Of a DNA stretch of 61,513 nucleotides, positions 2,331 to 22,116 are shown in pieces; within the stretch, counting starts at the first letter, position 1, and each line of letters begins with the position of its first letter. The DNA lies in the NCBI RefSeq assembly GCF_004010195.1, contig NC_057752.1, positions 10,075,322 to 10,136,834 of the forward strand, given 5' to 3'. The DNA comes from Chiloscyllium plagiosum. Taxonomy: Eukaryota. Made by a program: the position numbers and the translations under genes. Under the pieces are notes generated by a model. The model saw nothing but the letters and a program-made list of their open reading frames with translations. It ran no database searches and was not told the DNA's origin.

Positions 2331-3474
2331 CAACACAGCAACAGGACAAGACCTTTGAGCCTTTCAAGGTTGTTCCACCATTCAGTTAGACCATGACTTA
2401 ACTCCATCTATCCCCCTTTGTAACATAATCCTTACCATGCTCACCTAGCAAAAATCTATCATTGTGGTTAGGAACAGGAAGTTAGAAAGAGGCAGTCTGT
2501 ACACCGATGAAGTGAGTGGACTAAAGTATGCCAGGTGGGAGTCAAGGTGGTGAAGTGTGAGAACGCCTACTTTGGAGCTGATAAAGTTGATTCTGAATTC
2601 TGTCTTAATAGCGAGAGTCTATGATTAGTGGTGGAATAATGTGATTAAGGGAGCCATGTGCACAAATCACAAGCAAACTATTATCAAAAAACTAATAGCG
2701 TGTTGGGCTTGAACTCATGGTTGATGGAGATGCAAAACCAGGAAGTGAAACTTCAGTTTTACAGAACATTGGACAGACCTCATTTGGAATACTTTCAGTA
2801 TTTGGCACCAAACTGCTTGCGGGCAGTTTTCTATATACGATTAGATGTTCTTTCTGCTCCTTAGAAGGTTCTTGGACATTGAGACCATCATTCATCGTTT
2901 ATTAAGCATTAAGAGCAATTGCATCTATTTCACGGATAATACTCACAACCACATCAGACCATGGCTGGGTTGCAAAGTCAAACATGTTACAGTCCTAAGC
3001 TGGGTTATGTTGGTTGATTATACCTTGAGATGTTTTTGTCTGGAAATCAATAAGTTTCTACATTATATTATGACTCAAAATATAATTCCATGTCAGAGAA
3101 TTATCAGAGATGAGGCTGGTGGGAGACAGAGAGGAGCACAGAGGCAAGCAGAGAGAGAGAGAGAGAGGTCAAAGGGAGACAAAAAACCAACAGACAGGGA
3201 CTGAGACGGAGAACTATAAGAGCTCGCTGAGCTGCATAGCTACCAGAATGAAGACACGATATCCAGATTCAAATGCAATGTAATTGTCGTCAATGAGCTA
3301 TTTATCGTCGGTCTGAAGATGAAAGTGGTCCAGAGGATTCCAGATGTTGTCTCAATAAAACAGTCACAGCAAGGCGTTCCTTCATGTCGACGGCCAATTA
3401 ATATGAAGTGCAGAAGTAAAATAGGTATGAGAGAGATGAGAGCTCTATGTTTGTCATAAAAATCAAGATAGTCC

Positions 3475-3745
3475 TTAGAGTAAAGGGAAGACCTTTTCGA
3501 ACAGAGATAAGGAGAAACTTCTGCAGCCAGAGAGTGGTGAATCTATGGAATGCATTGCCACAGAAGGCTGTGGAGGCCAGATCACTGAGTATATTTAAGA
3601 CTGAGATGAAGATGTTCTTGAATATCAAGGGGATCAAGGGTTATGGGGAGAAAGTGGGAGAATGGGATTGAGAAACTTATCACCCATGATTGAATGGTGG
3701 AACAGATTCGATGGGCTGAATGGCCTAATTTCTGTTCCGATGTCT
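3475..3745 (+). mobile_element. CR1 LINE 3' end
   Basis: RRNFCSQRVVNLWNALP ORF2 C-terminus and GGGCTGAATGGCCT tail. Confidence 0.8.
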
Positions 3746-4837
3746 GGAGGAGAGAGTGACCTATGTTTAACCTGAATCACACCCCGACATTGCAAACCCT
3801 CAAACTAACTGAGGGATAGACATCCATAAAATACTTCCCCTGTCAAAAAAAAGGAGAACTCGACTGAGCTTGTCCCTTGTTGCCAACTTTAGTTCATAGT
3901 TCCCATAATGTACTTAATGAACTCTTCAGCTATTGAGGTACTGAATGGTATAATTTTTCTTTATTACTTTGTTAATATAAAATGTAAAACAAGAGTCTTG
4001 TCAGTCTCTGCTGTTATGTTTTCTGCTGTGATTTAAATTGACTGACCACTTTGGCTGTAAGAAAGCCCTGATTTACAAGTTGAAAAAAACCTCTGCACCT
4101 TTTCCCCTCTAGTTTTTGACAGGCACCCTGTTTTGAAATGGAAATAGGACACCATCTATTGTCAATTTCAGGCAATGTCGCTGGAAGCTTTTCGATGGCA
4201 GTTATGGCCACTATGAATCCTTGGATGGGTTTCAAAGCGAGATCTGGCTTCAAATCAATGAATAGTCTATTGATCCAAGGAGAATATTTTTTCAGAAGCT
4301 ATAATAATTGAACATATCTTTTTTTTGTGTGTTTACAGATCTAAGGTACTTAACGGTACTTACTTGCATAGTTTTTACGCGTTAGTCTTTCTTCCTTTTG
4401 TTTCAATGATAGTGAGGTTGGATTCAGGATTTTATGAGATTGTTAGAGGTTTATTTTGTTAACAATGATTTTAAAATGATTCCCATCGCTATTGTACAGC
4501 TCTTGTACATAATGAATACTGGGAGAGTGGCTAAGCTGGATATATGGGAGGCATGGAAGAGGCATGAGTTTGGATGGGGGACAACATAGCATCTCACTGG
4601 GATAGCAAACTGGAAATCAGGCCCAATTCCAGGAGTCATCACAAAAGTTCCCCAATTTACCTGTCTTTTACACCCAGGTCGATTGAAAGCATGGTCCAGG
4701 TTTCTGTACATAATGACTATTTATTAGAAGTAATTAGACTCTAGCTACAAGTAAACAGTTACTAATGGTCACCTCTGCTAGTTAAAACTCTAATCTCTAT
4801 CTAAACTCTCTACACACAGACAGACAAACAGGATTAT

Positions 4838-6400: not shown

Positions 6401-7004
6401 CACCAGTCTCTTTAACCATGCTGTGATACATCTTCCATCATTTGGGACCTGATCCTGGAGTTCCTGGCTCAGAGGCAGCAACACTACCCACAGTGCCACA
6501 AGACCTTATTTTTTAGGCAGCCTGAAATAACTGGAGAGAGGCCGGTATCCTGTGATCAAGTCACCCTTTATTTGCATGTGTACAGTACATGGACTCTGAC
6601 CAGCTGGACCAGAGCCAGGGCCTAGAATGAGGAGACTCTCTGAATCTCCTGTTTTTTTTCCCCTTCTTCCTTTCCCACAATCCCACTGCACCCAAAGGGG
6701 GCCCAGCAGCAGTTCTTAGATGTCCCCAAATCACCAGTGGCTGTGTATGTATGTCACAAGATCTTCTAAAGGTAAATTAGATATTTGCTACAAAAGAGCG
6801 ATAGTTAAGCATATTATTAACAGAGGAGTGACTCTTCCTTGCTGAGAAGCCACATTTGGTAGCTTTACTTTGTGTTCAGACTGTTCAATTGGATCTGATT
6901 TGTTGTGACCAACCTGAAATGCTAACGTAATTATTCTCTCAGGGCCCTTGTGGGGTTGTCAAACAATTTTTTTTGTTGTTTTGCTTCAAATACAATTGCT
7001 TGAC

Positions 7005-7235
7005 TTAAATGTGTCGATGAATTAACCCCGTGGCGAGGGATTGCCGCGTTGTAAGTGGTGGACCCTGACTATAGGGGCGTGCTCTGCAGATTGGAGGCGG
7101 GATTGTAATTGACGCGAGGTTTTAGTGATCACTGTTACTGACTTTTTGTCATTTTAGTGCCTTCAGAGAATAGCGAATGTGAACTGGTACTTTTAAATTC
7201 CCGGTAGTTTAACAGACACGTTTTGTTCGTTAGGA
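7005..7235 (+). promoter_or_regulatory. Probable CSAD promoter / 5' leader
   Basis: Local CpG enrichment, GC-box-like GGGGCGTG (7074) and GAGGCGGG (7094), inverted CCAAT (ATTGG 7090) and CRE-like TGACGCGA (7110), directly upstream of ATG 7236. Confidence 0.55.
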
Positions 7236-7275
7236 ATGGCAACTAACCAACAGCAGGAGAGACCGAGGGAAAGTG
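7236..7275 (+). CDS. CSAD: Probable coding exon 1 (MATNQQQERPRES, phase 1)
   Basis: GGAATGG Kozak context. 40 nt ending G|GTACTG; phase 1 matches the phase-1 acceptor at 14989. Exon 2 has no in-frame ATG of its own. The donor is weak. Confidence 0.6.
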
Positions 7276-8101
7276 GTACTGTTGTATTTATTTTCTACTT
7301 GTAATCACAATAATAGTAACTTTACAAATGCACTGTTGCAGATATTTATCGTTTGTTGAGTTATTGTAAATCGAGGACATGTGAACATAAGTTTTCTAAA
7401 TCAGAGCTGGAAAGGGCCTGTTCCCCAGATCACTAATATTTACTCGTTGAATTGAATCCAGCATTTCAAATGGAAGCAGTTGTTAAATATTGAGTGGTGA
7501 AGGACGGTACTCTCTTTGCAGTGTAATCTTATTAAAATTCAAGCCCCACTCTTTTGTAATTAGGGTGTGGCTTGTCTTCCCCGCCTGTTTTACCTTGTTG
7601 TCACGTCCGCGTCGATGAAAGATGTAGCACTTGATTTGTACTGTTATTCCAATCCAGGGGAGTGGGAGCAGAGTGGCCGCCGTGATCACAAGATAGTGAT
7701 ATAGAGATGGCAGCCACTTAGTTAAAGAGCTCCTTTTTTTTTGATCGGAGATGATTGTAGTAGAGGTTTATGAGAATGAAGTGATTCCTCTTAGGAGGAT
7801 AAATGGGAGAAGTTGGGAATGCTCCTCTTGGAGGGGGAAATAGTGGCCACAGTGAACAAAGAGAAACTGTTTCCCACTGGTGGACAGATCAGGAATCAGA
7901 TTTAAAGTAGTTGCTTCTTTCACCAATGGTAACATGAGGAAGAGGACAGTTAAGAGAGCCGTAACGTGTGGAGATAGATGCTTGTCTGAAGAAAGCGGGA
8001 ACGCAGAGCACCACTAGGTGGCCTGCTCTTGTGATGAGTAGGTGTTACTGATAGGATCGGCTGAATGGTCTCCCTCCGTGCTGTGTAACCGTTTTGTGAT
8101 T

Positions 8102-8756
8102 CAAAGTTTGTGCGAAGATTTGTAGCTCGGGTGCTCGTTGTTGTGGTTCTGTTCGCCGAGCTGGAAGATTTTGTGCAAACATTTCCTCAGTGCATGGGAG
8201 CCTCCTGTGAAGCGCTTCTGTGGTGTTTTCTCCGGCATTTATAGTGGCCTGTCCCTGCCGCTTCCGGTTGTCAGTTTCAGCTGTCTGCTGTAGTGGCCTG
8301 TATATTGGGTCCAGGTCTATGTGCTTATTGATTTGAATCAGTGGATGAGTGCCATGTCTTTTAGGAATTCCCTGGCTGTTCTCGGTTTGGCTTGTCCTAT
8401 AATAGTAGTGTTGTCCCAGTCGAATTCATGTTGCTTGTCATGGGAATTCGACTGAGACAACACTACTATTATAGGACAAGCCAAACAGAGAACAGCCAGG
8501 GAATTCCTAGAGGCATGGCACTCATCCACTGATTCAAATCAATAAGCACATCGACCTGGACCCAATATACCGACCACTGCAGCGGACAGCTGGAACTGAC
8601 AGCCGGAAGCGGCAGATTCAAAGCACTATAAATGCTGGAGGAAAGATCACAGAAGCGCTTCACAGGAGGCTCCCAAGCACTGAGGATGTCACCTAGACAG
8701 GGGACGAAAAGTCTGCAACACACATTCCCAGCTCGGTGAACAGAACCACAACAACG
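8102..8756. mobile_element. Fold-back Penelope-like element fragment (GIY-YIG C-terminus plus hammerhead-bearing terminal repeat, present twice in inverted orientation)
   Basis: Arms 8136-8427 and 8444-8756 are reverse complements; peptide EFDWDNTTIIGQAKxRTAREFL; flanking GTTTTGYGATT duplication. Confidence 0.8.
8677..8716 (+). ncRNA. Minimal type I hammerhead ribozyme motif (second family)
   Basis: Stem I GCA/UGC, CUGAGGA core (8680-8686), extra U, stem II GUC.CCU/AGG.GAC, GAAA, then A-GUC. Confidence 0.55.
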
Positions 8757-9964
8757 TTTTGCGATTTGTTATCGAGATCGCTACTCGAGTGCCTTTTTCC
8801 AAGCTGGAGTAAAATTGAAGGCAAGGAGCTGTATGCGATTCTCCACTTTCTAGGCTTAATTCCTATCGCTCAGGCCTTGGTATTTGCTTCTGTGTTACGA
8901 ATCTAGCAATGGGCAAAAGTCAGACTATTGGAGTTTGGGTTTGTTTTTGTAATGAAGACTGGAGAACTGAACACTAGGTAAGGTGGGTCTGAATGGAGCT
9001 CTATGTGGGTGGATCCTGGCATTCTCTTGGCTATATATTTTACTGCTTGTACTGTATTTCAGCATCCCATTGTCTTTGCCAATTGCTGTGCATGTTGTGT
9101 ATTCCCAAGGCTTCTTGCAGGTTCCCCTTTTTTGTTTCCACACATTAGCGGAAAAAATTGCAAACGCTTGAACACATTCTAAATCCCAATCTGAGTTCTC
9201 TCCTTCTACTGACCCGAGTCATTAACTATCAGTGCTGACTTGGGCTTTGACGTTGTTTCCACGTTGCTGCTTTTAAAAACATAATTGGTGTCCTTGGGTA
9301 TTTTGAGAATGAAGATAGGCTCCGTGACATTTAATGAGCAACACTGTCCGAAACAAACACAAAAACAAAGGGTTTTGCTTCGACTTGGTGCACATGGAAT
9401 AAAAGGGACAACAACAACTGGCTGAATGATATTAAACAGAGTAACAGTGAATGGTTCATTTTCAGAATGAAGGCGGGGATATATTGAGACCCTTGTTCTT
9501 CCTAATGTATATGAATAATGCAGACTTGAGTAGGACACAAATTCAAAATTTCATATACACAACTTAAATGTGAACTGAGGGGCATGTTGATGGGCTTTTA
9601 TTTTTGAGGATAGAAGCAAACGGGTTTCACGTGAAGTTTAGTACAGACCTGTGCAATGAATGTCTTCCTTTTCTTCCAAAAATCAACATAAAATAGCAAG
9701 TGCAGGGTATAGAATCAAAGGAACCTGGGGCTATATGTGCACAATCACTGGGGGTGGGACAGGTTGAGAAGGTGGTGAATGAAGCACATATGCTGAGTTC
9801 TATAGGCAGAGACAGTCTTAACTGAGCAAGAAAGTGATGTAAAATGCTGGCTTGGTCTCAATGGGTTCAGCATTCCATTATGGACCCTTGGGTAAGGTAT
9901 CACACGTTGCAGATTCTGCTCATTTCGACTTTGTAGTTGAACAGCAAATCTTATGACACACACA

Positions 9965-11066
9965 GGAAGTTTTCATTCTCCTGCACAGCCCTTTACTCAC
10001 TGAGCCAGGTGCTTCCCCACCCCCACCCCTCACGCACACTGAAGATTTCTCTGACCAGACAGAAATTGAGCACTTGTTGGAGGGTCTGGTCCAGGCCATC
10101 CAAGAAGTTTAAGGGGCTTCCTGAGAATATCAAAATCCTCCTCCTCAATCTGGGCAGTTTGGAATATAGGTCACCATTTCTGGCCTGCACAAAAGAACCT
10201 GAATCCAGTGCAGGAAGAGAACAAACACTCTTCTCCACCTCAATATTGCAAGTGGCACCATTCACTCACAGCAAGCTGTCATTCCTGTGGCATAGCTCAT
10301 TGACAGAGATATGGCATCGTTACAGAAAGTGATCACATGCATGATGTATACTGGCTGACATCTATCTCCATATTCTATACAGTCAACATTCTGCCAGGTC
10401 GACATAAGGTCTCATGGCTTGGTCTGCCTATGTCTGCTGACACACCCATTACAATTGCACTTGCTTAACCCTTTTATTTTCCACTTTACAGAACAGTGAT
10501 ATTTTGATGGACCTCCAGCCCCAACCATTTATGAAGCAATGTAAATGGGACATTTGATCAGAGTCTCCTCTCAAATACAAGTGTCATAAAGTATATCACC
10601 ATAAGAACTAATCAGGTAACATATTTACATGAAGACCAACATAGGCTGACTTCATGCCTGTAAATATGTAACTATCCTACCGATAAGATACAGAAGTCAA
10701 GTTGAATTTTAGTCTCTTCCCCCCCCCTTAATTCAGCATCTGTTGAAACATTAGTGTTCTCTTGTTTGCTGTATTATTTAATGCTTTAACCCCACAAGAA
10801 CAGTAGTAATGGTCAATAAGTAGCCCCAGGCCTGGTTTACTCTTCCCTCTGCACCCATGGGTACCAGCACTCCAGCCAGGTGGCCATTCATTACGACCAT
10901 TGACAGGCTATTTGACAACAAACTCCCATCTTCTCTGCCCTATGGAGCTCCTGTCACTTTGACAGTTGCAGAGTGTCACCTAGAGAAATTGTTGAGTATC
11001 AAATTGAAATTGCTCCTCGTGACCCATGTTGCTGGCACCAGTATATTAACAATTACAAACCTATTG
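9965..11066. repeat. Left arm of ~1.1-kb inverted duplication in intron 1
   Basis: Collinear reverse complement of 12309-13460. Confidence 0.9.
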
Positions 11067-12308
11067 TCCATCCAGCAGAGAAAGCAATGCCATAGGTCAA
11101 TGACACTCTCAAGGACTGCTACTGACCATGGTTCTGTTGCATCCCTTTGCAAATGACGTACCTCTGTACTCTGCCATTAGCAAGATGTTGAGCGTACAGC
11201 AACAGGAAGGGGAATGCACTACCTGAGGTTTGTGGTAGAGGCAGATGCAATTGAGGTTTTCCAAAAAGAAATAGATTTGTTATCTGAAGAGAATTGTGGT
11301 GCTGAGAAAAGGCAGAATAATGGAATTGGGCCAATGGAGTTGCAGTAAGTCAGTATAGACATGATGGACCGAATGACCACCTCCCTGTTTTCTAGCAATT
11401 CTGTAATTTGTGCTATGAAATCTTTATGGAGGGACAGGATGAAAATGACAAGTAAGAAAATCTTTGTGATCACTGTATAAGTTCCTATTAATTTGTGATC
11501 TGGATGTTGCTGGTAAGGGCAATGTTTATTGGCCATCCCTAATTGACATTTAATAACTGCTCTCTTGAAATGGCTTGGAGTTAAGAGCAATAAAAAGCTT
11601 CTGCTTTATCCTGTGCAAGATTTGTGGACATGCCTTGCTTTTTAAATAAACAACAAAGGGATAAATGCATGCCAAAGATCTTTAAAATATAGCTATAAAA
11701 TGCTGCAAGTCTGTGGAGACACAGAATGTGCCAACATTCCAGCTGGGTGACCTTTCATCGGATCTGTCAAAAGATGGAAAGGTCACGGGATTTAAGTACA
11801 AGAGGGAGGGGATGGAAGACGCACAAGGATAGACTGTGATAAGATGGAGGGTAGGAGAGATTAAATGACAAAAGGGTTCATGGTGCAAGTCTGGAAGCCT
11901 TAATGAAACAAATAAATAGTCAAAAAATGGATTTTGAGAGCCAAAGTGGAAAAAAAAGTGTAGCTGTCATGCAAAACACAAAATGGGGACAGTTTTTTTT
12001 TCTCAAAGGGAAATAGGTGTTTTAAAGAGTGAAGGAAATGTTGTGTTTCTTGTCATTGATTTATATTTGCATTTTCATAGACCCTTTGTTTTGGTGTTAC
12101 TGGACAAGGCAGGTCAGCAAGTCTCTTCATTCTTGTCCCTGCAAAGTCAAGTCTCTCCCTTGGCTTTGTCTGTTACTGCAGCTGTCATTATGAAGGTGAG
12201 ATTGGGGGAGCAGTCACTAAAAATGGATTTATGGATCCAGGTGTCATTTTGAATTCTCAGAATATACTTGGTACTCAATGGAGCAACCTTTGCCCGAGCT
12301 CCCAAGTG

Positions 12309-13460
12309 CAATAGGTTTGAAATTGTTAATGTTATGAAGTCAGCAATTTCAATTTGGTGCTCAGCGATTTTCTCTAGGTGACACCCTGCAACTGTCAAAG
12401 TGATAGGAGCTTCATAGGGCAGAGAAGATGGGAGTTTGTTGGTGGGCTATTCAACAATGGTCATAACGAATGGCCACCAGGCTGGAGTGCTGTTGGGAGC
12501 CTGGCACCCATGAATGAGAAGGGAAGACTAAACCAGGCCTGGGGCTACTTATTGACCCTTACTACTGTTCTTGTGGGACTAAGCATTAAGGTTGGAGATG
12601 CAATAATGCAGCAAACAAGAGAACACTAATGTGTTTCAGGAGATGTTGAATAAATGGGGAAAAAAATCGACTTGACTGCTGTATCTTATCGGTAGGATAG
12701 TTACATATTTACAGGCATGACGTCAGCCTATGTTGGTCTTCATGTAAATATGTTACCTGATTTGTTCTTATGGTGATATACTTTTATGGCACTTGCGGTA
12801 TTTGTGTGAGGACTTTGATCAATGTCCCATTTAAGTTGCTAATAGTTGGGGGGCTGAAGGTCCATCAAAATATCACCTTGTCCTGGAAAATAGAAAATGA
12901 AGGATTAAGCAAGTGTGATTGTAATGGGTCCTGGACCTGGTAGAACATTGACTGTATAGAATATTGAAGTAGCTATCAGCCAGTATACATCATGCATGTG
13001 GTGCTAAGGTGCAGGTGATCATTTTCTGACAGATGTGGCACTGTTACATTGAGCTATGCCACAGGAGTGACAGTTTGAGTGGATGGTGCCACTTGCAATT
13101 TTGAGGTGGAGAGGAGTGTTTATTCTCTTCCTGCACCGGATTCAGGTTCTTCTGTGCAGGCCAGAGGTAGTGAACTGCACTCTGACCTCATTCCACACTG
13201 CCCAGATCGAGTGGGAGGATTTTGGTATTCTCAGGAAGACAAGCCCCTTAAACCTCATGGATGGCCTGGACTGGACCCTCTAACAAGTGCTCAATTTCTG
13301 TCTCATCAGAGAAATCTTCAGTGTGTGGGGGTGGGGGCACCTAATCCAGTGATACACAGGCTCATGGTGGGTAAAAGGCTGTGCAGGTGGCCTTTAAATA
13401 TGGCACCTGATTGTTCAGCCCAAGGAGGTGCTGGGGAGTGGGGGAAGAATGAGAACTTCT
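12309..13460. repeat. Right arm of ~1.1-kb inverted duplication in intron 1
   Basis: Collinear reverse complement of 9965-11066. Confidence 0.9.
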
Positions 13461-13619
13461 TACACCTCTTTCTCCTTTTCTCATCCCTCATTGTGCGAGA
13501 GCAGATGGACGTGGGATATCTGTGAAAATATTATTGAAGTGAAAGGGTCATTTGAGAGAGCATGTACTGGGCGTTAATGGTCATTGTGGGTGTAAAGTAC
13601 AAAAGAAACACTATTCTGA

Positions 13620-14988: not shown

Positions 14989-15146
14989 AGTTCAGTGGAC
15001 TATCGAGGAAACATCCCAATACTGTTGATAGTGTTTTACTGGATGGACCCTTGACTGACCCTGAAGCAGGCGAACAATTTGTACAAGATGCATTTCAGAT
15101 CATTTTGGAGGAGGCCATCAAGAAGGGGACAAATGTCAATGAGAAG
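14989..15146 (+). CDS. CSAD: Coding exon 2 (EFSGLSRKHPNTVDSVLLDGPLTDPEAGEQFVQDAFQIILEEAIKKGTNVNEK)
   Basis: Polypyrimidine tract with TTTTAG acceptor, AAG|GTAAGA donor; resembles the CSAD/GADL1 N-terminal helix. Confidence 0.9.
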
Positions 15147-20204: not shown

Positions 20205-20632
20205 TGTTATGGACTAGGCCAGACCACTCAAAACATTCTTAAGCAAGCAGCCCAGACCTCATAACTTTGCAATTTGTTTTGGTAAGTGTATAGTGAAAAT
20301 TACCCAGTGTAAGCTAGCTAGGTTGACTAATAGATTTTAAAACAAAAAATTTATTCACAAAATTACACAATGAAACCAAACAGAGTAAAGAACCCCTACA
20401 GAACTCAGTCTATCTAAACTAGACTTCATTATACTGTTCCGAATATACACAACAGTCCCAATAAGCAAATCCCCTTTAAAACACAGTACAAAATAGGTCA
20501 GATACTTACAGGCTGAAAGTAGAAGTGCTGAAGAGTTTCCACACCACTCACTGTTGAACTGCCAACCAGTTCTGGACTGCACTAAAGTGCTCAGCTAGAG
20601 AGCTGACCACTTCCCTTTCATTATACAGGTCT
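20205..20632. mobile_element. Truncated LTR-like repeat
   Basis: Starts TGTTATGGACTAGGCCAGACC; homologous to 28234-28910. Confidence 0.55.
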
Positions 20633-22116
20633 CCCCTCTAGTTGGCAAATCCACGTATTGAGTCGGGAATCCTTCCTGGACGCACCTGACAAAATTTGCT
20701 CGCTCCCTCCAAACTATTGGCACTAAGGAGGTTCCAATCAATATTAGGGAAGTTGGAACATCGAAATCCCTGAACAGGCAACAAAGGAGGCTAGTACAAT
20801 TGCAACATTTAAAAGGCATCTCCCATGGGTAAATGAATGGGAAGGATTTGGAGGGATATGGGCCAGGTGCTGGCAGGTGAGACTAGATTGGTCAGCATGG
20901 ACAGTTGGGCCGAAGGGTCTGTTTCCGTGCTATGCTTCTCTATATCACTTTGCACACATGTCTGCATTAAATTTCATTTTTGTCATCAGTCTGTTTTGTC
21001 AGCCTGTCTATTTTCTTGAAGTTTGTTGTTCTCATTATTTAGTATGATTCCAAGTTCTGTCCTCAGCAGACATTGAAATTCTGCCTTGTATACACAAGGC
21101 CAGGTTGTTAATGAGAGCGTTGCTACTAGCATTGGCCTGACTGGCCTGTGATCTGCAAATTGATCTCCTTGCTTTTTGTTTGAAATTGGGCTCAAACACT
21201 GACAATCCTCCAGTAGTGCTCAGCTAGAGAGCTGACCACTTCCCTTTCATTATACAGGTCTCCCCTCTAGTTGGCAAATCCACGTATTGAGTCGGGAATT
21301 GCTTTTTGTTTGAAATTGGGCTCAAACACTGACAATCCTCCAGTCCTCTGACACTATTGTTTTTTTTAACCAAGTATGGTCAGAGGTTTGTGGCCACAAC
21401 CTTGCCAACTTTGCTTCCCTTGGTGACCTAGGATGCATCCCATCCAGATCTTTTCATGGAGGACTGCTAACCTTTTCTGTTCATCCTCTTCGGATATGAT
21501 GGCGTTATTGTACAAGCTCCATCTCACTGGGCGAGGCTGAGAGTTGTGGGGCTTAGGAAGGGTCGGCCTCTGCTAAATAGATATATGAACTCCCTTCCTT
21601 GTTGAGAGCACTTGCCTTGTGGTTAGCGCCACACTTGCCTCAGTTTGTTGCAATGTTGATCGTGTCAGAGCAACCCTTGAAGATTTTGAGGAGAATGGAA
21701 AACATCAGACTCTGGCATCTGTTTGAACACTTCCCTACCGGGATTGAGATCAAGTCTGACTCAGCCAGCATGTAGAACTTGGTGTCCAAGGTGAAAGATC
21801 CCTGTTCAGTCTGCTGTTAGTCAGGACTGCAACTCACTCGGTGAAGTGACTGAGTCTTTTTGATGTTGTAAAATATTCTGTAGTGCTTCACAGGAGCACT
21901 AGTGAACAAAGTTTGACACACAACCACGTTAAGAGATATTCAAACATGTCTGAAATCTTGGTCAAAGAGGTAAACTTTTAAGGAGCCTCTGAAGGGGGAG
22001 AGGGGGTTTTAGTGCTAGAAGCCTAGGCAGCTGAAGTGGACTGAAACTTGAGTTGAAGGGATTTCTTGACATTGTTTCTAAATAAACTGAGATGTATCTT
22101 TGTTTATTCCCTTCAG

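What the first reader, a model, noticed from the sequence alone, without database searches (positions are those of the whole stretch)
10588..12784. Near-identical ~106-bp hairpin core inside two otherwise diverged inverted arms in CSAD intron 1
Seen: 10588-10693 and the reverse complement of 12679-12784 differ at only 2 of 106 positions by manual alignment, while the surrounding arms carry many substitutions and indels. The core is itself an imperfect palindrome. On the + strand at 12681-12781, ACAUAUUUACA pairs with UGUAAAUAUGU, and the stem extends both ways through several G-U pairs to a ~100-nt hairpin with a CAGCCU loop; it folds better in this orientation. The core also carries opposed forkhead-type TATTTAC/GTAAATA sites, a GATA site and a perfect CRE (TGACGTCA at 12718; TGACTTCA in the other copy). 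Inference: a constrained element, either an unannotated pre-miRNA-like RNA or a duplicated enhancer. Local gene conversion is the neutral alternative. I do not recognise it as a known family.
Basis: partly seen in the sequence, partly recalled or inferred. Interest (0 to 1): 0.75.

Follow-up and report, generated by a model that had tools for sequence, protein, structure and literature searches.

The report
Gene-converted patch in shark inverted duplication
A 1.1-kb stretch of an intron in a shark's taurine-synthesis gene (CSAD) has a mirror-image copy nearby, and the 106-base patch where the two copies are almost identical was likely evened out by DNA-repair copying between them rather than kept by function, though an untested liver-type enhancer there is not excluded.

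Summary
In detail: 2 differences in 106 bp, inside single-copy inverted arms (9978-11066, 12309-13389) that differ at 12.8% of positions, in the first coding intron of CSAD. The patch is only moderately beyond chance (P about 0.004-0.04; 3 of 25 unlinked repeat pairs also reach P<=0.01). Of 2 other single-copy inverted duplications in 1.75 Mb of this genome, one has a stronger patch (250 bp, 0 differences). In a second species (about 4% diverged) the core has 1 change in 106 (about 4 expected; P 0.05-0.11). Its two arms share an exact 30-mer just outside the core, where this genome's arms differ at six places. One older conversion tract of about 155 bp fits all of this without selection. A pre-miRNA is unlikely: no Rfam match, the long hairpin dissolves in sense context, and the cores are predicted to pair with each other. 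It is not a MITE (two copies). An enhancer remains the serious rival: three forkhead sites plus a CRE occur in 0 of 16,374 control windows. However, arm 1 lacks the CRE and the GATA site is non-canonical. Verdict: probably ordinary non-allelic gene conversion.

The parts
9978..11066 (+). Arm 1 of a single-copy local inverted duplication
   Evidence: alignment; only 2 matches in G000; no hit in 1.8 Mb control DNA
12309..13389 (-). Arm 2, 12.8% events relative to arm 1
11067..12308 (.). 1.24-kb spacer with fragments of dispersed repeats; its one ORF of 90 aa or more (11219-11605) was not scanned against Pfam
   Evidence: (high repeat depth 11151-11996)
10588..10693 (+). Near-identical core, copy 1
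   Evidence: arm-1 contig of run X1 covers the part equivalent to 12702-12784
12679..12784 (-). Near-identical core, copy 2; 1 substitution (12691, a CpG) in organism B
12703..12753 (.). 11-bp perfect inverted repeat with 29-nt loop (mirror copy at 10619-10669), centred on the core; predicted DNA hairpin -8 to -10 kcal/mol
12706..12750 (.). Three forkhead-type TRTTKRY matches (12706, 12731 plus; 12744-12750 minus) around a full CRE at 12718-12725; the CRE is broken in arm 1; consensus motifs recalled, function untested
12805..12833 (.). Stretch (mirror of about 10542-10571) where organism B's two arms share an exact 30-mer while this genome's arms differ by 5 substitutions and 1 indel
   Evidence: X11 records 4, 5, 6; X11 record 2 stops matching arm 1 at 10565
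7236..7272 (+). Likely first coding exon of CSAD (MATNQQQ...); 3' end inferred
   Evidence: weak tblastn match to the N-terminus of P0002, E=9.1; P0001 begins MATNHHQQ
14989..15146 (+). CSAD second coding exon

Best explanation
An old local inverted duplication of about 1.1 kb of CSAD intron carries a 106-bp near-identical patch that was likely produced by non-allelic gene conversion, one arm being copied onto the other during DNA repair, and it likely has no function of its own. Shown: the duplication is single-copy, 12.8% diverged overall, and present in a second species. Inferred: one conversion tract of roughly 110-155 bp (about 12679-12833), laid down around or somewhat after the split from organism B (~4% divergence), has since gathered a few changes in each lineage; the 106-bp core is its least-changed part in this genome. 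Speculative: the 11-bp quasi-palindrome at the exact centre of the patch could have seeded the break or template switch that started the conversion.
For: (1) Arms and core occur only twice in G000, 1.2-3.4 kb apart. Conversion is reported to be more frequent at short distance, with tracts from a few to several hundred bp (PMC3924837, passages) and a mean of 250 bp in human duplicate introns (10.1101/135152, passages). (2) Same-genome control: of 2 other single-copy separated inverted pairs in 1.75 Mb, L039 (same contig) has 250 bp with 0 differences in arms 8% apart (1 of 3, where L016 was also counted). A single-copy direct pair, L051, has 2 differences in 120. (3) In organism B the arm-1 contig (depth 15) is arm-1-like out to 12834 but matches this genome's arm 2 at all five diagnostic sites 12805-12815, and both arms share an exact 30-mer there. 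The edge of identity therefore differs between species. (4) Over 12679-12833 the A-B difference in arm 2 is 3-5 events in 155 bp, P 0.09-0.54 against background. 2 in 106 between arms is compatible with conversion at about the time of the species split (P 0.15-0.28). (5) One of the two arm differences destroys the CRE in arm 1. (6) Centre of core 10640.5, centre of palindrome 10644.
Against: (1) Neutral conversion predicts no drop in between-species divergence (PMC3924837 passage), yet the core has 1 change in 106 against about 4 expected (P 0.05-0.11; Fisher against the flanks 0.19-0.45). This weakly favours constraint. (2) The patch falls on a rare motif cluster (0 of 16,374 control windows) and on a hairpin in the top 0.2-1% of GC-matched windows. 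(3) No species-specific change shared by both arms was seen, so concerted evolution is not proven. The five sites could be one multi-base mutation in this genome's arm 1. (4) Arm 1's core and inner part were not recovered in any of the 3 B runs; B's arm-2 contig is not at double depth (9.1 against 8.6-15.4), so a longer collapse in B cannot be claimed. (5) The control set is tiny (n=2-3). Outside the core the arms show no further patchiness (P=0.56).
Confidence: 0.5

Rival explanations
1. The core is a duplicated intronic enhancer of CSAD. Forkhead (FOXA-type) factors would open it and CREB/ATF would couple it to cAMP signalling; selection on both copies, perhaps helped by conversion, keeps them alike.
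For: Three forkhead-type sites plus a full CRE: 107 of 16,374 control windows have 3 or more such sites, 6 have a CRE, none has both. The CRE is the only one in the 61.5-kb window. There is 1 change in 106 bp in organism B against about 4 expected. A CpG is kept in both arms (10681/12690-12691) in a CpG-poor intron. The location is the first coding intron.
Against: The motifs were picked after seeing the sequence. Two of the three forkhead sites are the palindrome itself. Arm 1 has lost the CRE and the GATA site is non-canonical. Selection on binding sites would not usually hold about 98% identity across spacers in two redundant copies (inference). Conservation in B is not significant, and it vanishes if the window is 155 bp. 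No paper on a CSAD intron-1 forkhead enhancer turned up in the listing.
Confidence: 0.3
2. There is no special process. The patch is the low tail of uneven divergence in an AT-rich stretch, chosen after the fact and possibly exaggerated by the particular haplotype or polishing of this assembly.
For: P rises to 0.04 when adjacent events are merged, and fragment tests are not significant. 3 of 25 unlinked repeat pairs reach P<=0.01 with the same scan. Run X1's arm-1 contig has an extra difference at 12742. All four runs differ from the window at 12590. Arm-2 contigs of three A runs cross the core unbroken, which shared 41-42 bp runs should prevent.
Against: The unmerged scan gives P=0.004-0.006. 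The X1 variant has depth 3.4 and may be an error.
Confidence: 0.13
3. The core encodes a lineage-specific pre-miRNA processed from the CSAD intron or from an antisense transcript.
For: Fold z -2.5 and -3.1; MFEI 0.74 and 0.83; top 0.2-1% of GC-matched windows.
Against: No Rfam match better than E=1 in 9800-13600, and none overlapping the stem. The sense-strand long hairpin collapses in 150-nt context. In a fold of 10540-12840, 103 of 106 core bases pair with the other arm's core (duplex -179 against -27 kcal/mol). The best fold is antisense. The two stem 10-mers are absent from one shark liver small-RNA table (weak, because that study required a match to another species' genome).
Confidence: 0.04
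4. The core or the arms are a MITE or foldback transposon.
For: Internal inverted repeat; long inverted arms.
Against: Core, arm and the 11-bp inverted-repeat pattern each occur only at these two places in G000 (the DNA search skips very common words). There is no hit in 1.8 Mb of control DNA. The 4 ORFs of the arms that were scanned gave no Pfam match of note. The arm ends are ragged.
Confidence: 0.02

Closest known systems
Non-allelic (interlocus) gene conversion between nearby duplicates (PMC3924837; 10.1101/135152; passages read)
   Same: Short tract of near-identity inside older, diverged duplicates; close spacing; intronic; tract length of about 100-250 bp.
   Different: Here the duplicates are non-coding inverted arms inside one intron. 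The defining sign, a species-specific change shared by both copies, could not be shown because one arm was not recovered in the second species.
Palindrome arm-to-arm conversion on sex chromosomes, e.g. human Y palindrome P6 (PMC3723533; search listing and start of abstract only)
   Same: Inverted repeats kept alike by conversion.
   Different: Those arms are over 99.9% alike with multi-kilobase tracts; here the arms are 87% alike with one short patch.
Liver-type FOXA/CREB enhancers (recalled; no call)
   Same: Clustered forkhead sites and a CRE in a first intron of a metabolic gene.
   Different: No chromatin or reporter evidence; CRE in one copy only; GATA site non-canonical.
Intronic pre-miRNAs and long intronic inverted repeats that form dsRNA (recalled)
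   Same: Local hairpin; arms predicted to form a long duplex in the pre-mRNA.
   Different: Stem short and context-dependent; no bias towards G-U-preserving changes between the arms (36 against 28); no RNA evidence.

Membership tests
Non-allelic gene conversion tract | Locally reduced divergence between paralogous copies | tested here: met
   2 of 106 against 12.8%; P 0.004-0.04
Non-allelic gene conversion tract | Species-specific changes shared by both copies (copies group by species) | tested here: inconclusive
   B arms share an exact 30-mer at 12805-12833, but arm 1's core was not recovered in B
Non-allelic gene conversion tract | Between-species divergence in the tract equals the neutral background | tested here: inconclusive
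   1/106 (P 0.05-0.11) for the core; 3-5/155 (P 0.09-0.54) for the wider tract
pre-miRNA | Stable long stem in the context of the transcript | tested here: not met
   Sense hairpin dissolves in 150-nt context and is displaced by arm-arm pairing; the antisense arm-1 fold persists with moderate pair probabilities
pre-miRNA | Match to a known family | tested here: not met
   Rfam 15, E<=10: 3 chance-level hits, none a miRNA
pre-miRNA | 21-23 nt read stacks with a star strand | not testable with these tools
   No small-RNA run was listed
Constrained enhancer | Cluster of binding motifs beyond background | tested here: met
   3 forkhead + CRE in 0 of 16,374 control windows; motifs chosen after the fact
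Constrained enhancer | Lower between-species divergence than the flanks | tested here: inconclusive
   Fisher P 0.19-0.45; one comparison species
Constrained enhancer | Open chromatin or reporter activity | not testable with these tools
   No such data available
MITE / foldback transposon | Many dispersed copies with terminal inverted repeats | tested here: not met
   2 matches only

The most novel reading that the evidence does not exclude
The core is a palindromic FOXA/CREB enhancer controlling taurine synthesis in sharks. It was duplicated in mirror image inside CSAD intron 1, and its own hairpin-forming centre triggers conversion that keeps the two copies synchronised while one copy has shed its cAMP response.
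Probability: 0.2. Interest if true: 0.5.

Novelty: new member of a known kind. Interest (0 to 1): 0.22.

Why it matters
If the best explanation holds, this is one more example of a common process and a caution that near-identity between nearby copies is not evidence of function. If the enhancer reading holds, it would be a testable handle on how sharks regulate CSAD, the taurine-synthesis enzyme, and a small natural model of a regulatory element evolving in concert with its own inverted copy.

Tried and rejected
Rfam gave nothing. A full-text search for six short core motifs found 0 papers. A search for a CSAD intron-1 enhancer listed 9 papers, none on topic by title and abstract start. Look-ups of earlier findings near this place, by sequence and in relatives were empty. 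An apparent inversion (12818 to 13210, X14) and insertion (12820, X9) in organism B were rejected: the joints fall at GATC sites, as expected of proximity-ligation chimeras (my inference), and X11 crosses both places unbroken. I first read the missing arm-1 contigs and mirror-image contig ends (10959/12398) in B as a 460-bp fully homogenised tract. I dropped this because the control run X1 also lacks the inner arm-1 contig and depth is not doubled; the hole may be a filter effect. GADL1 was considered for the gene (favoured it, favoured CSAD); an integrin-beta synteny check was uninformative and settled on CSAD by a database name only. No G-U bias between arms. In the control survey L016 counted but dropped out; tandem arrays, adjacent palindromes and repeat-derived pairs were left out of the single-copy count. 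Loci were 10-kb pieces, so pairs crossing their edges were missed.

Full report
Observation. The window holds an inverted duplication with arms at 9978-11066 and 12309-13389 and a 1.24-kb spacer. The arms differ by 98 substitutions and 32 gaps over 1016 columns (12.8%). Permuting the differences gives P=0.004 for that window and 0.005 for a scan over ten widths. P rises to 0.04 when events within two columns are merged, and the fragment-length tests are not significant (P=0.16 and 0.32). The same scan gives P<=0.01 for 3 of 25 unlinked repeat pairs from different contigs. The patch is real but only moderately unusual.

Setting. The exon at 14989-15146 is 92% identical to a protein that NCBI names Stegostoma tigrinum cysteine sulfinic acid decarboxylase (2 hits among 62 candidates). 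That protein maps exon by exon to 53781, and a short ATG exon at 7236 matches weakly. The repeat therefore lies in the first coding intron; no RNA read tested this. PDB searches were split between CSAD and GADL1. Core, arm 1 and the 11-bp inverted-repeat pattern each match only these two places in the 3.56-Gb genome (the search skips very common words). The arms hit nothing in 1.8 Mb of control DNA. This argues against a MITE or transposon.

Hairpin. The four folds give -18.2, -29.7, -27.3 and -16.3 kcal/mol (z -2.2, -3.1, -2.5, -1.7). The best is antisense to CSAD. The two good folds rank in the top 0.2-1% of GC-matched windows of this window. With 150 nt of context, however, the sense-strand fold keeps only the central 11-bp stem. 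When 10540-12840 is folded as one RNA, 103 of 106 core bases pair with the other arm's core (duplex -179 kcal/mol), so in a pre-mRNA the local hairpin is predicted to be displaced. Rfam gave three chance-level hits and no miRNA. Two 10-mers of the stem are absent from the one supplementary file of a bamboo-shark liver small-RNA study (PMC3789328; supplement search and passages). That test is weak because its candidates had to map to another species' genome. Perfect 11-bp inverted repeats with a 20-40 nt loop occur 44 times in 0.97 Mb.

Motifs. With recalled consensus patterns, each core has three forkhead-type sites. Arm 2 has the window's only full CRE, arm 1 lacks it, and neither has a canonical WGATAR site. 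Three such forkhead sites occur in 107 of 16,374 control windows, a CRE in 6, and both in none. The cluster is rare, but the motifs were chosen after seeing the sequence and two sites are the palindrome itself.

Second species. Runs of a second organism, B, hold 50-60% of the 10 sampled words around the core (7 of 15 holders, 4 studies). B is about 4% diverged here (166 substitutions in 3741 bp over six X11 contigs, including one replaced segment). In arm 2, B differs once in the core (12691, a CpG) with a 1-nt deletion at its edge. The flanks carry about 8-11 events in 269 bp, some near contig ends and not listed. One in 106 is low (P 0.05-0.11) but not significantly different from the flanks (Fisher P 0.19-0.45). 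B's arm-1 contig in X11 is arm-1-like out to 12834. It then matches this genome's arm 2 at 12815, 12810, 12809, 12807 and 12805, and ends on the same 30-mer as B's two arm-2 contigs. On arm 1 it stops matching at 10565. So B's arms are identical over 30 bp where this genome's arms differ by five substitutions and an indel. A conversion tract of about 155 bp (12679-12833) near the time of the species split would explain this, the 2-in-106 core (P 0.15-0.28) and the A-B difference of 3-5 in 155 (P 0.09-0.54). A single multi-base mutation in this genome's arm 1 would also explain the five sites.

What the reads do not show. Arm 1's core and inner part were not recovered in X9, X11 or X14, and the spacer contig ends at mirror positions. 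I first took this for a long collapsed tract. The possible source run X1 lacks the same inner contig and B's arm-2 contig is not at double depth, so I dropped the claim. No species-specific change shared by both arms was seen. X1's arm-1 contig has a further difference at 12742 (depth 3.4) and all four runs differ from the window at 12590, so the assembly may slightly overstate the identity (P=0.018 for three differences and 0.068 for four). Joints in X9 and X14 fall at GATC sites and are read as ligation chimeras.

Same-genome control. In 180 stretches of 10 kb (1.75 Mb without N), there were 2 other single-copy, separated inverted pairs of 300 bp or more. One of them, L039 on the same contig, has 250 bp with no difference inside arms 8% apart. 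In the first half of the survey it was 1 of 3, and one of two single-copy direct pairs also had such a patch. The numbers are small, but they show that stronger patches arise elsewhere in this genome. Earlier AI notes describe similar cases; I did not check them and do not count them as support.

Mechanism and verdict. Most likely (0.5) an old inverted duplication carrying a gene-conversion patch. Published tract lengths and distance effects fit (PMC3924837 and 10.1101/135152, passages only). The duplication, its copy number and its presence in B are shown; conversion and its timing are inferred. That the centred palindrome (10644 against 10640.5) seeded the event is speculation. A constrained forkhead/CRE enhancer is the serious rival (0.3) and is not exclusive of conversion. 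Chance plus assembly effects gets 0.13, pre-miRNA 0.04 and MITE 0.02. Searches of the paper library for the core motifs and for a CSAD intron enhancer found nothing on this element. The finding is a new instance of a known kind, with interest 0.22.

Noticed in passing
L039:182-917 and 3228-3982 (G000:C43, about 123 kb beyond the window's end): Single-copy inverted duplication, 8% diverged, with at least 250 bp of perfect identity: a clearer candidate conversion tract than the one reported here.
   Followed up: partly
window 8136-8756: 620-bp fold-back with nearly adjacent arms in the same intron. Its reading frame recalls the end of Penelope-type retroelements (recalled; Pfam gave no match). 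Similar self-palindromes of repeats are frequent: 13 of 15 in the control DNA are repeat-derived.
   Followed up: partly
window 7000-7300: Locally CpG-rich stretch with GC-box-like and CCAAT-like words just upstream of the ATG at 7236; likely the CSAD promoter.
   Followed up: no
window 12590; 10495; 12848, 12857: The window differs from all four laid runs at 12590. Arm-1 contigs of two A runs appear to carry 2 bases missing near 10495. One A individual shares organism B's state at 12848 and 12857.
   Followed up: no
window 12176-12385: A contig of run X3 skips 210 bp, a possible deletion allele removing the inner end of arm 2.
   Followed up: no
window 12691: Organism B's single core change turns the non-canonical GATA-like word into a canonical one (sequence reading).
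   Followed up: no
window 20586-20670 / 21215-21299 and 21169-21214 / 21299-21344: Perfect direct repeats of 85 and 46 bp about 600 bp apart, in rearranged order.
   Followed up: no
L051:1929-2240 and 3362-3681: Single-copy direct pair with 2 differences in 120 bp inside 11% divergence.
   Followed up: no
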